A DNA stretch of 64,000 nt from Escherichia phage UE-M6. Location of the stretch: the sequence record PP301343.1. One strand, given 5' to 3'. The position numbers and the translations under genes are program-made. A model generated the notes under the pieces. The model was not told the origin of the DNA. It ran no database searches and worked only from the letters and a program-made list of their open reading frames with translations. How positions within the stretch are numbered: the first letter of the stretch is position 1; each line of letters begins with the position of its first letter. Below, piece after piece: positions 61,701-63,797 of the stretch.

Positions 61701-61973
61701 CTATTTAGTTCTATATAACATCTTCTCTGCTCTATGCCCATTAACTGCTAAGAAGTAGCATGGGCCAGATACATCGGATACCCTATCCCATGGTTCTAGT
61801 TTTATGAAGTTAACTATCATATTTCTAAGTAAGCACTCGCCTCTTAACCAGTGATAGTCTATATCGGAGTGAACATATACAGGTACATTGGGAATATTGT
61901 TACATATCCAATTCCATAGTATACCCTCTCCTACATGTAACCTTCCCATATCTGATAGGAAATATAATCTCAT
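61701..61973 (-). CDS. Hypothetical protein, member of a tandem paralogue family
   Basis: N-terminal MRLYFLSD and internal PVYVHSDIDYHWLRGECLL match the family pattern. Confidence 0.45.
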   Translation of the reverse strand: MRLYFLSDMGRLHVGEGILWNWICNNIPNVPVYVHSDIDYHWLRGECLLRNMIVNFIKLEPWDRVSDVSGPCYFLAVNGHRAEKMLYRTK

Positions 61974-61974
61974 G

Positions 61975-62304
61975 CTAATCCTTATAAGCAGTTAAATAGG
62001 AGGAAGGAATCTGGGAGAGGATGTGGTCATAGTAATAGCAATATGCTTCACTATTGGCAGAGTTTATAGGCATACCTATGTAGTCAAACGCCCACAAACA
62101 GAAATGGTTGAGTTCGTGGATGAGTGTATGTAAAGGTTCCCTAAAGATACCAATCAATACTCGATTGCCAGAATAAGAAGTATACCCCTTACAACCATCC
62201 AAGTCTGGCTCATGCCCTTTAAGTTTCTTATACTTTTTAATGAAGGTATCCTGGTCGAATACTACTTCTAACTGTACCGGGTAGGGTGATGTGTTTAGTT
62301 TCAT
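61975..62304 (-). CDS. Small HExxH-motif protein (putative zinc metallopeptidase-like)
   Basis: Motif LIHELNHFCLW in a 109-aa ORF. Confidence 0.4.
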   Translation of the reverse strand: MKLNTSPYPVQLEVVFDQDTFIKKYKKLKGHEPDLDGCKGYTSYSGNRVLIGIFREPLHTLIHELNHFCLWAFDYIGMPINSANSEAYCYYYDHILSQIPSSYLTAYKD

Positions 62305-62624
62305 TAGAGACTCTCGTCGCTAGATAAATATGAGGTAGAAGGATAGAGGGTAATAAGTCTACCAGTAAGGGTAGTTACTACCATAGGTTCACTCTCTGAC
62401 AATATGTACACACTGGTGTGTTCCGGTATTTCTACGGAATCTACTATCTTAATGAATTGGATAGGTTGCCCCAACATTAAGCAAGTACCTATGAACACAT
62501 CTGCATCTTCACTTGGCTCATACAGGATGGTGGTAACTCTCCCCTTACCTGCCAGGATATTATCCAATGTATATGGAGACAAATAGCAAGTAGTAGCAAA
62601 GCTACTAAGGCAATACAGATGCAT
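62304..62624 (-). CDS. Hypothetical protein, tandem paralogue family
   Basis: N-terminal MHLYCLSS and segment TTILYEPSEDADVFIGTCLMLG. Confidence 0.45.
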   Translation of the reverse strand: MHLYCLSSFATTCYLSPYTLDNILAGKGRVTTILYEPSEDADVFIGTCLMLGQPIQFIKIVDSVEIPEHTSVYILSESEPMVVTTLTGRLITLYPSTSYLSSDESL

Positions 62625-62627
62625 ATC

Positions 62628-62897
62628 TTACTTCCTTATATAGTAGTAACAGTATTCATCATTTACATACCGACTATCCCATTGGTAGTCATTAGATACC
62701 AACATATATGGGATAGGGTCACCTGCACTGTAGTTGGTATAGACAGAGGGTGGAATAATACATACAACCTTACGATCATTACCTGCTAAGAATAGTTGTC
62801 CCCTTACTTCATGGTAGTCCTCTAAGGTAGGAACCAGGATTACTTGCTGGGGGTTGCTGTTCATTACTTCTTCTAAAGAGAAGTCAGTTGTATACAT
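62628..62897 (-). CDS. Hypothetical protein, tandem paralogue family
   Basis: Start at the internal Met (MYTTDF) with an AAGGGA RBS; segment QQVILVPTLEDYHEVRGQLFL. Confidence 0.4.
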   Translation of the reverse strand: MYTTDFSLEEVMNSNPQQVILVPTLEDYHEVRGQLFLAGNDRKVVCIIPPSVYTNYSAGDPIPYMLVSNDYQWDSRYVNDEYCYYYIRK

Positions 62898-62907
62898 AGA
62901 TTCCCTT

Positions 62908-63306
62908 TCAGCAAAACTGGGGATGGTCATTATGAATTTCATGATTAATTTTCCTTCCTTTAGGAATAGGTCTGAAGTAAATGGAAAGTGTTTTATTAAA
63001 GACATTATGGTCAGCTATCAATTCCCAACCAGGTATTTTATAGAACCTAACACCAGGGAAAATCATACTAAAGTCGCTGTAAAAGGAGAGGTCATACACC
63101 TTTGGTTCAGTGAGTATCTTAGTATTGAGTTGCAGGTTGGATAGGAAAAGAGAACCAATAACCTCGTGTGACTCTTCACAGTCAGGTAAGAATACTGTTT
63201 GCCATGGGGTAATGAACTTACTTACTACTTCTGGTTCCCCAAGGTAATAAGGTTCTTGATTACGAAGTATCCCAGTAATATCAATATCAAAAGCGTAGAT
63301 GCTCAT
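62908..63306 (-). CDS. Hypothetical protein, tandem paralogue family
   Basis: N-terminal MSIYAFD and segment WQTVFLPDCEESHEVIGSLFL. Confidence 0.45.
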   Translation of the reverse strand: MSIYAFDIDITGILRNQEPYYLGEPEVVSKFITPWQTVFLPDCEESHEVIGSLFLSNLQLNTKILTEPKVYDLSFYSDFSMIFPGVRFYKIPGWELIADHNVFNKTLSIYFRPIPKGRKINHEIHNDHPQFC

Positions 63307-63320
63307 ATTTGCATACCTCC

Positions 63321-63358
63321 TGAAAAAGAAATGGGGTAGAGCCTCTCGACTCTACCCC
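63321..63358 (-). terminator. Rho-independent terminator / attenuator
   Basis: 9-bp stem ggggtagag/ctctacccc with 8-nt loop, followed on the - strand by atttcttttt; sits about 15 nt upstream of the next start codon. Confidence 0.5.
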
Positions 63359-63506
63359 TTACCGTTTTCAATCACGGGTCAGTTCATCACCCTAGATACA
63401 TGTGTATCGTTAGCCTACTAGGTAGGAAAGGAGCCGGGTAACCCTGACTGTAGAAGTTATTAACTCTTTACGAGTACCGCCACTGTCTACTAGGCGGCAT
63501 GACTAA

Positions 63507-63797
63507 TCACATCGTCACCATCATCCGAACACTGTCTTTGCTTCGCCTGACGGAGACACTATGAGGTAATTTTGTGAAGAACACAAGAGCTGAAAGTCTC
63601 TTTTCTAAAGAGTAAGTTTCTCTTGGTTCTAAGATCTTAATGCCTGGACGATTCTCTAACAGCATCATCCCAGCTAATTCATGGTAGGAATCTTCATCAT
63701 GTGTAATGATAATATCATCTGAAAGAATACCAGCCTTGGTATGGTCTAGTTCTTTGTATTCATCTTTGGAGTCGTGGACTCTCATATAGATTCTCAA
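63507..63797 (-). CDS. Hypothetical protein, tandem paralogue family
   Basis: N-terminal MRIYMRVHDS and segment DDIIITHDEDSYHELAGMMLL. Confidence 0.45.
   Translation of the reverse strand: MRIYMRVHDSKDEYKELDHTKAGILSDDIIITHDEDSYHELAGMMLLENRPGIKILEPRETYSLEKRLSALVFFTKLPHSVSVRRSKDSVRMMVTM

What the first reader, a model, noticed from the sequence alone, without database searches (positions are those of the whole stretch)
61701..63797. Five-member tandem paralogue family upstream of the first hairpin promoter
Five ORFs (61701-61973, 62304-62624, 62628-62897, 62908-63306, 63507-63797) share an N-terminal M-x-[LI]-Y motif and a central pattern like [VI]-x-P-x-x-E-[DE]-x-H-E-[VL]-x-G-x-[LM]-[FL]-L. 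Tandem diversified paralogues in a phage early region often mark host-takeover or anti-defence arms races. All five lie upstream of the outermost GGA-loop promoter, so their transcription signal is unknown.
Basis: seen in the sequence. Interest (0 to 1): 0.6.

Follow-up and report, generated by a model that had tools for sequence, protein, structure and literature searches.

The report
Right-end paralogue array in N4-like phage
The five small genes are true, very diverged copies of one uncharacterised protein family (the N4 gp70/gp71 family). They sit at the last-injected right end of an N4-like coliphage genome, not in its early region, and a conserved folded RNA with a terminator separates the first copy from the rest.

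Summary

**The family is real.** The window is a circularly collapsed, reverse-oriented G7C-like N4-like coliphage. The five minus-strand ORFs are under purifying selection (dN/dS 0.08-0.44). Iterative profile searches, leave-one-out HMMs, profile-profile comparison and two AlphaFold models all place them in one family. That family unites N4 gp70 and gp71, G7C gp70-gp71.2 and at least six PHROGs of unknown function.

**They are not early genes.** The physical genome end lies at window ~61455, between ORF A and the first hairpin promoter. The array is therefore the extreme right end of the genome, divergent from the terminase genes.

**Distribution.** Copy number ranges from 1 to 7. A gp70-gp71 pair is conserved as far as Achromobacter and Pseudomonas N4-like phages.

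**Function is unknown.**
- There is no Pfam, NCBIfam or PDB relative.
- No polar catalytic residue is conserved.
- My best guess is a set of diversified non-enzymatic binder proteins that act after full genome entry.

**Unexpected extra.** The gp70-gp71 spacer holds a structured RNA (a three-way junction plus an intrinsic terminator). It is conserved across subfamilies, shows strong covariation and has no Rfam match.

**Corrections.** ORF C probably starts at 62942, not 62897. The HExxH gene at 61975-62304 is not a family member.

The parts
63507..63797 (-). E: gp70-type family member (96 aa, TTG start). First gene of the array and conserved across Schitoviridae subfamilies.
   Evidence: phrog_7213; G7C and N4 gp70; AF2 pLDDT 87; dN/dS 0.14-0.44; 89 phage records, including Klebsiella, Achromobacter and Pseudomonas phages.
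63477..63497 (-). Hairpin H1 just after the gp70 stop codon: CCGCC, an 11-nt loop, GGCGG. The loop consensus is YAGnrGnnnGGT.
   Evidence: compensatory CG>UA and GC>CG changes in L037; CCCCC/GGGGG in JWAlpha and inbricus.
63359..63465 (-). Conserved structured RNA core. It comprises the UUAAUAAC motif, a three-way junction (P1a/P1b, P2, P3) with unpaired ACUCCUU in the junction, and hairpin P4.
   Evidence: Independent MFE folds of 10 of the 11 lineage sequences give the same architecture; G7C is the exception. The covariance model hits only this spacer in N4, KP8-like, inbricus and JWAlpha loci. 96% of cells are paired and 23 of 26 pairs show double changes, against 29-42% paired in the slid controls. 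There is no hit below E=0.28 in 723 kb of control DNA. There is no Rfam match.
63333..63358 (-). Intrinsic terminator (11-bp stem followed by a U tract), immediately upstream of the gp71 ribosome-binding site. Its sequence is lineage-specific but its position is conserved.
   Evidence: (a terminator is annotated at the same place in JWAlpha).
62908..63306 (-). D: gp71-type family member (132 aa).
   Evidence: (phrog_9160).
62628..62942 (-). C: G7C gp71.1-type member. The revised start at 62942 gives 104 aa and overlaps the 3' end of D by 35 nt.
   Evidence: the 89-aa version matches positions 16-104 of phrog_11661. (in P0362 the internal Met is Leu). (the translation-initiation sequence CCTATTCCTAAAGGA is duplicated with that of E).
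62304..62624 (-). B: G7C gp71.2-type member (106 aa), the most divergent of the five.
   Evidence: phrog_12099; AF2 pLDDT 82.
61975..62304 (-). X: a 109-aa HExxH-motif protein (phrog_1365). It is not a family member and is an accessory insert in the array.
61701..61973 (-). A: last family member (90 aa). It is in no PHROG. It is found only in this E. coli phage clade and in Klebsiella KP8-like phages.
61055..61455 (.). Single collapsed copy of the ~401-bp direct terminal repeat. The physical left end is at ~61455. The repeat contains the P1 hairpin (61355-61369) and the 5' part of gp1.
   Evidence: PMC3896407; UE-S5a record position 1 corresponds to window 61055.
63798..63968 (.). Divergent gp69/gp70 intergenic region. 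It has a conserved imperfect hairpin (63903-63923) and conserved blocks, so it is a candidate promoter region. No sigma-70 consensus is present.

Best explanation
SHOWN.
- The five ORFs are diverged paralogues of one ~90-130-aa alpha/beta protein family, to which N4 gp70 and gp71 also belong.
- They form a co-oriented array at the extreme right end of the linear genome. The array lies between the divergently transcribed terminase genes and the right terminal repeat.
- The first gene (gp70-type, E) is separated from the rest by a conserved structured RNA and an intrinsic terminator.
- The gp70-gp71 pair is quasi-core in several Schitoviridae subfamilies. The further copies (C, B, A and other types elsewhere) are lineage-specific expansions. 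They are shuffled by recombination, and unrelated accessory genes such as X are inserted among them.

INFERRED.
- The only family-wide conserved positions are a Gly, some hydrophobic residues and an acidic helix N-cap. No catalytic constellation is conserved. The proteins are therefore most likely non-enzymatic scaffolds whose variable surfaces bind different protein (or nucleic-acid) partners.
- The right end enters the cell last and no vRNAP hairpin promoter precedes the array. They must therefore act after complete genome entry (middle or late), not during immediate host takeover.
- Expression of gp71 and the downstream copies requires read-through of the conserved terminator, or initiation within the spacer. 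The RNA element therefore probably gates the array.

MY COMMITMENT. A diversified binder or inhibitor family that modulates host or defence proteins late in infection.
For: - Family membership.
- Real genes.
- Genome position.
- Copy-number variation of 1-7, always in the array upstream of gp69.
- Indel of A+X relative to G7C, and a shared C-terminal tail at the junctions.
- A-type shared only with Klebsiella phages.
- No enzyme-family or solved-structure relative.
- The whole-window HMM scan hits only these five ORFs.
- Terminator and RNA element.
- Acidic pI of B, C and D (4.3-5.4).
Against: - No functional data of any kind exist for this family.
- Overall dN/dS is low (0.1-0.3). That is not the signature of a fast arms race.
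- gp70 and gp71 are conserved in phages of Escherichia, Klebsiella, Achromobacter and Pseudomonas. This fits a phage-intrinsic role at least as well as host-specific antagonism.
- No promoter was identified.
- The known anti-defence hotspot of N4-like phages is elsewhere.
Confidence: 0.4

Rival explanations
1. gp70 and gp71 have a phage-intrinsic housekeeping role tied to the genome end. Examples would be DNA replication initiation, concatemer processing or packaging with the adjacent terminase, or late regulation. The extra copies would then be sub- or neo-functionalised duplicates.
For: The pair is syntenic with terminase gp68/gp69 and conserved across subfamilies and host genera. dN/dS is low. 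The flanking non-coding elements are conserved.
Against: Copy number is highly variable and some phages keep a single detectable member (L029). Three N4-like loci with more distant gp69 show none at sequence level. No DNA-binding or nuclease signature was found.
Confidence: 0.25
2. gp70 is an RNA-binding regulator of the structured RNA and terminator that always follows its gene. It would control read-through into gp71 and the downstream paralogues, as an autoregulatory attenuator.
Confidence: 0.1
3. This is the first reader's view: early-region host-takeover genes that are transcribed at the onset of infection.
For: In the circular map they are co-oriented with, and adjacent to, gp1 and gp2.
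Against: The physical terminus lies between them and P1. There is no GCGGAGC-type hairpin in 61700-64000. N4 vRNAP promoters are confined to the first-injected left end (PMC4496689).
Confidence: 0.03
4. The similarity is chance or compositional, and the ORFs are unrelated ORFans.
For: Most pairwise BLAST and shallow profile comparisons are non-significant. PHROGs keeps them in separate families.
Against. A duplicated translation-initiation sequence is also visible at DNA level.
Confidence: 0.02

Closest known systems
Escherichia phage N4 gp70 (YP_950548) and gp71 (YP_950549); G7C gp70, gp71, gp71.1 and gp71.2
   Same: These are direct orthologues of E, D, C and B. They occupy the same right-end position and orientation and have the same spacer with a terminator.
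   Different: All are annotated only as hypothetical proteins. None of the records or libraries I checked notes that gp70 and gp71 are paralogues. The window carries two genes that G7C lacks (A and the unrelated X), and N4 has only two members.
PHROGs 7213, 9160, 11661, 12099, 16338 and 12606 (all 'unknown function')
   Same: Each corresponds to one subfamily of the family described here.
   Different: PHROGs does not join them. The A-type is in no PHROG. Here they are united by profile and fold evidence.
Anti-defence 'hotspot' of N4-like phages (Acb4, Sequestin, Bes1, Bes2, Tad proteins) between the primase-polymerase and vRNAP genes
   Same: It is a variable accessory-gene island in the same phage family (bioRxiv 10.64898/2026.06.04.730250 and 10.64898/2026.08.10.743972).
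   Different: It is a different locus: the acb4 primer maps to window 25219. Its proteins are unrelated and their activity has been demonstrated. The right-end array is untested.
C-terminal RecA-like domain (RecA2) of SF2 / DEAD-box helicases
   Different: The similarity is not reproduced by the B model. The family has no helicase motifs, has a single helix, and is about half the domain size.
Terminator-coupled cis-regulatory leader RNAs (riboswitches, attenuators) and 3'UTR-derived sRNAs
   Same: The element is a conserved multi-helix RNA, directly followed by an intrinsic terminator and then by the ribosome-binding site of the next gene.
   Different: It matches no Rfam family. No ligand, promoter or alternative antiterminator pairing could be identified.

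Membership tests
N4 gp70/gp71 superfamily (defined here) | Core motif hhhh-(P)-x-x-[ED]-[ED]-x-x-x-h-x-G-x-h-h-L, followed by h-x-h-L-x-P, that is detectable by a family profile. | tested here: met
   for A, C, D and E. B is met by profile-profile comparison (93.7%, E 1.9e-7) and transitively.
N4 gp70/gp71 superfamily (defined here) | A common predicted fold: b1-(b2)-b3-a1-b4-b5-b6-b7-b8. | tested here: met
   The AF2 models of E (pLDDT 87) and B (pLDDT 82) have the same element order. B's Foldseek neighbours are only small proteins of N4-like phages. Only two of the five were modelled, and they were not superimposed.
N4 gp70/gp71 superfamily (defined here) | Location in the co-oriented array between terminase gp69 and the right terminal repeat. 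| tested here: met
N4 early (vRNAP-transcribed) genes | Location downstream of a 5-7-bp-stem, 3-nt-loop hairpin promoter in the first-injected left end of the genome. | tested here: not met
   Hairpins occur only at 61355, 60672 and 56920. The genome terminus separates the array from them.
N4 middle or late transcription classes | A mapped RNAPII initiation site (AT-rich, -7 to +2), or an N4SSB-dependent sigma-70-like promoter. | tested here: inconclusive
   There is no sigma-70 consensus on the minus strand. Conserved intergenic blocks have unknown meaning. The literature maps middle transcripts to the left half and late transcripts leftward. The class of gp70-72 is undefined.
SF2 helicase RecA2 domain | Significant structural superposition plus helicase motifs IV-VI. 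| tested here: not met
Any curated protein family (Pfam-A, NCBIfam) or solved structure | A sequence match above threshold. | tested here: not met
   (0 PDB sequences at E<=10).
Known anti-defence proteins of N4-like phages (Acb4 and others) | Homology or co-location with the acb4/bes hotspot. | tested here: not met
   The acb4 locus maps to ~25.2 kb. The hotspot is defined between the primase-polymerase and vRNAP genes. No dedicated anti-defence HMM library was available.
Rfam RNA families (for the gp70-gp71 spacer element) | A covariance-model match. | tested here: not met
   One search gives only a chance mir-279 match elsewhere (E 0.69).

The most novel reading that the evidence does not exclude
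[quoted passage not shown] A gp70-type protein is followed by a new class of structured RNA (a three-way junction with an invariant ACUCCUU junction, plus a terminator). That RNA gates expression of an expandable array of gp71-type paralogues with a fold unlike any solved structure. The paralogues would be late-acting inhibitors of distinct host or defence targets. Together this would make a second, independent counter-defence island of Schitoviridae with its own RNA switch.
Probability: 0.15. Interest if true: 0.75.

Novelty: new variant of a known kind. Interest (0 to 1): 0.45.

Why it matters
- It corrects the map. These genes are the last DNA to enter the cell, so any role in immediate takeover is excluded.
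- It unites at least six 'unknown' PHROGs, together with N4 gp70 and gp71, into one Schitoviridae-wide family. This gives a single target for structural and genetic work on the N4 model system.
- Variable copy number and the recombination junctions mark a second plastic locus in therapeutic N4-like phages.
- The conserved three-way-junction RNA with a terminator is a concrete, testable candidate for a new phage cis-regulatory RNA.

Tried and rejected
- **Pairwise and shallow profile comparisons.** Pairwise BLAST and shallow ortholog-profile hhalign were mostly non-significant and comparable with the unrelated control X. Deeper profiles were needed.
- **Large-database searches.** A single-protein search with D returned only close orthologues. 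A full HMMER scan of 1.84 billion representatives with the 5-sequence profile found only 10 clusters. One of these (P0363, a 691-aa W/H-rich tandem-repeat protein) is probably spurious.
- **Cupin idea.** This came from the 'GE..IP.G..H.F' pattern in some subfamilies. I rejected it because the models contain a long helix and are not all-beta.
- **Acb4 identity.** Rejected, because the published primer maps to window 25219.
- **Promoter hunting.**
  - There is no sigma-70 consensus.
  - A 22-nt similarity to the P2 leader (60609-60630) is not conserved in G7C or N4.
  - GTTAATAAC-like 9-mers are over-represented genome-wide on both strands, which is uninformative.
- **Antiterminator hypothesis.** Pairing of the junction CUCC with the terminator is no better than in shuffles.
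- **Pattern scan of IMG/VR for the RNA.** The pattern was too degenerate and returned 120 chance loci. I reused the 80 listed loci as a negative control for the covariance model.
- **Literature.** Searches found no functional or expression data for gp70 or gp71.
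Full report
**What the window is.** The region is ~100% identical to Escherichia phages UE-M3, UE-S5a and UE-S5b and ~87-91% identical to G7C-like phages (Gamaleyavirus, Schitoviridae).
- In the public records the five ORFs lie next to the terminase genes. In G7C they are annotated gp70, gp71, gp71.1 and gp71.2, with gp70 and gp71 'similar to N4 gp70/gp71'.
- All five are on the minus strand. Small terminase gp69 starts divergently at 63969.
- On the same strand, downstream of ORF A, come the homologues of N4 gp1 (60989-61312) and gp2 (60176-60658).

**Genome topology.** Four independent lines place the physical end of the linear genome between ORF A and the first hairpin:
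- N4 nucleotide 4 aligns to window 61450.
- The G7C record starts at window ~61454.
- The NGS-mapped terminus of the G7C-like phage IME11 (GTGGCTGGGGCTACACCC, with a 401-bp direct terminal repeat; PMC3896407) is the sequence at window 61455.
- The UE-S5a record starts at window 61055, which is the other boundary of that repeat.

The window is therefore a circularly collapsed assembly. In the virion the array occupies the extreme right end and is followed by a 245-nt spacer and the right copy of the repeat. In N4 the left end is injected first and vRNAP promoters are confined to it. Middle transcripts map to the left half and late transcripts run leftward in the right half (PMC4496689). The temporal class of gp70-72 is not defined in the papers I could read. 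The 'early region' premise is therefore wrong, and the absence of a hairpin promoter is explained.

**Are the five ORFs real genes?** Nei-Gojobori dN/dS against orthologues is 0.08-0.44 for all five.
- E uses the TTG at 63797. An AAGGAG lies 7 nt upstream, and the MRIY N-terminus matches N4's MRLFY.
- C most likely starts at ATG 62942 (MKFIM..., 104 aa). The 89-aa version matches only positions 16-104 of phrog_11661. The internal Met is Leu in a distant orthologue (P0362). The sequence CCTATTCCTAAAGGA upstream of that ATG duplicates the conserved translation-initiation region of E.

**Are they paralogues?** Pairwise similarity is weak. Only C-D is significant.
- I collected right-end regions of related phages and ran iterative HMM searches over 669 six-frame ORFs. 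Seeds from C or from E converge on the same 86 ORFs. These are every orthologue of A-E plus 20 further members (types F-K, N4 gp71). No wrong-strand ORF and none of the interposed gene X were recruited.
- The family alignment shows a ~35-residue core with an invariant Gly.
- Leave-one-subfamily-out profiles recover A, C, D and E at E 1e-5 to 2e-8 among 360 window ORFs, with no other ORF at E<=10.
- B is the outlier. With all B-types left out, window B reaches only E 0.014, although every B-type ranks above all but one other ORF. B-profile against rest-of-family gives 93.7% probability, E 1.9e-7.
- The AlphaFold2 models of E (pLDDT 87, pTM 0.76) and B (pLDDT 82, pTM 0.72) have the same order of elements (b1, b2, b3, a1, b4-b8).
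- Foldseek of the B model against BFVD returns only small uncharacterised proteins of N4-like phages of E. coli, Klebsiella, Achromobacter and Pseudomonas.
- The family profile hits only these five ORFs in the whole window.

**Distribution.**
- PHROGs splits the family into at least six families of unknown function, and the A-type is in none.
- Searches of 5.8 billion proteins found 255-439 clusters, listed hits mostly on ~70-73-kb contigs and none with a Pfam domain. The full HMMER scan of 1.84 billion representatives found only 10 clusters.
- Copy number in gp69-anchored loci is 1, 2 (N4), 4 (G7C), 5 (window) and 6-7, always in the same array. E and D types always come first.
- gp70-type genes occur in 89 phage records, including Klebsiella, Achromobacter and Pseudomonas phages.
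- Achromobacter phage JWAlpha has gp87 (gp70-type), gp90 (gp71-type) and three weaker members. Pseudomonas phage inbricus has a gp70/gp71 pair followed by gp1 and gp2 homologues.
- The A-type exists only in this E. coli phage clade and, at 62-66% identity, in Klebsiella KP8-like phages.
- Relative to G7C, A+X is a 782-bp indel.
- The C-terminal tail PS(S/T)SYL(T/S)AYK(D) is shared by B-type, H-type and the unrelated X. This marks in-frame recombination junctions.

**Function.**
- There is no Pfam, NCBIfam or PDB-sequence relative.
- The conserved positions are structural: a Gly, hydrophobic residues and an acidic helix cap.
- B, C and D are acidic.
- The experimentally defined anti-defence hotspot of N4-like phages is a different locus.
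- I therefore commit, with modest confidence, to non-enzymatic binder or modulator proteins acting after full genome entry. A phage-intrinsic role for the conserved gp70/gp71 pair is the main rival.

**Transcription signals and an unexpected RNA.**
- Sigma-70-like promoters are depleted in the region: 1 found against 9 expected, and none on the gene strand.
- The gp69/gp70 intergenic region has blocks conserved from G7C-like phages to N4, including an imperfect hairpin.
- Between E and D lies a strong intrinsic terminator (63333-63358).
- The whole 200-nt spacer is conserved at nucleotide level in lineages whose flanking proteins are only ~30% identical.
- Independent MFE folds of 10 of the 11 lineage sequences give the same architecture (G7C is the exception): hairpin H1, UUAAUAAC, a three-way junction with unpaired ACUCCUU, hairpin P4 and a lineage-specific terminator.
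- A covariance model was built from five G7C-like sequences. It finds exactly this spacer in KP8-like phages (E 3e-8), N4 (2e-4), inbricus (2e-4) and JWAlpha (8e-3). It finds nothing below E 0.28 in 723 kb of unrelated viral DNA that shares the primary-sequence pattern.
- On the model-derived alignment, 96% of cells pair, against 67% in shuffles and 29-42% in slid controls. 23 of 26 pairs show double changes. The caveats are that the alignment is fitted to the model and that there are only about seven independent lineages.
- There is no Rfam match.
- A simple antiterminator pairing could not be supported.
- The element probably gates expression of gp71 and the downstream paralogues, or is a stable 3'-UTR RNA.

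**Verdict.** The family and its RNA-gated arrangement are uncharacterised. Interest is moderate.

Noticed in passing
window 63333-63497 (minus strand): A conserved structured RNA lies between gp70 and gp71. It comprises hairpin H1, a three-way junction with invariant ACUCCUU, hairpin P4 and an intrinsic terminator. Covariation is strong across Schitoviridae subfamilies and there is no Rfam match.
   Followed up: partly
window 61975-62304 (minus strand): A 109-aa protein with an HELNH (HExxH) motif (phrog_1365, no Pfam or PDB relative) is inserted in the array. It is present in only some related phages, so it may be a minimal metallopeptidase-like accessory gene.
   Followed up: partly
window 61981-62007 and 62304-62340; loci L002, L011, L012, L017, L026: The C-terminal tail PS(S/T)SYL(T/S)AYK(D) plus stop codon is shared by B-type and H-type family members and by the unrelated HExxH gene. 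A 27-nt stretch is 100% identical to the end of G7C gp71.2. This looks like an in-frame recombination junction for cassette shuffling.
   Followed up: partly
window 61055-61455: This is a collapsed single copy of the ~401-bp direct terminal repeat. The physical left end is at ~61455 (GTGGCTGGGGCTACACCC). The repeat contains promoter P1 and the first ~257 nt of gp1, so a truncated gp1 copy sits at the right end of virion DNA.
   Followed up: yes
window 63903-63923 and flanks: The element GATTCTTTTCTTGGGGT...ACCCCTTGAAGAAACC is an imperfect hairpin in the divergent gp69/gp70 intergenic region. It is conserved from G7C-like phages to N4 and KP8-like phages. Its function is unknown.
   Followed up: partly
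window ~25219: The published forward primer for the Bas69 acb4 locus (a cyclic-dinucleotide sponge) matches here with one mismatch. The known anti-defence hotspot of N4-like phages is therefore in this part of the window.
   Followed up: partly
window 26273-26430 (minus strand): Two adjacent tRNA genes are predicted: tRNA-Ile (anticodon aat) and a second tRNA for which ARAGORN reports an abnormal two-base anticodon.
   Followed up: no
L001 (UE-S5a) 1251-1719: In UE-S5a the B gene is split into two ORFs (87 and 70 aa) by an insertion or duplication of ~148 bp relative to the window and UE-M3.
   Followed up: no
proteins P0259 and P0316: gp70-type proteins are deposited as 'hypothetical protein [Enterococcus faecium]' on a 2.76-Mb contig. 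This is probably contamination or misassembly with a coliphage.
   Followed up: no
protein P0363: A 691-aa protein made of tandem ~76-aa W/H-rich repeats, eight stretches of which weakly match the family core. It looks like a translated satellite repeat and is probably a spurious hit.
   Followed up: no
window 61300-64000: Sigma-70-like promoter matches are strongly depleted here (1 found against 9.0 +/- 2.9 in shuffles). GTTAATAAC-like 9-mers are over-represented window-wide (43 against 18 expected).
   Followed up: no
window 714-728 and 63935-63949 (+ strand): The 15-mer TCTTTAATAGACATA occurs upstream of gp69 and once more near the window start on the same strand. It may be a shared late-promoter or leader element.
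   Followed up: no
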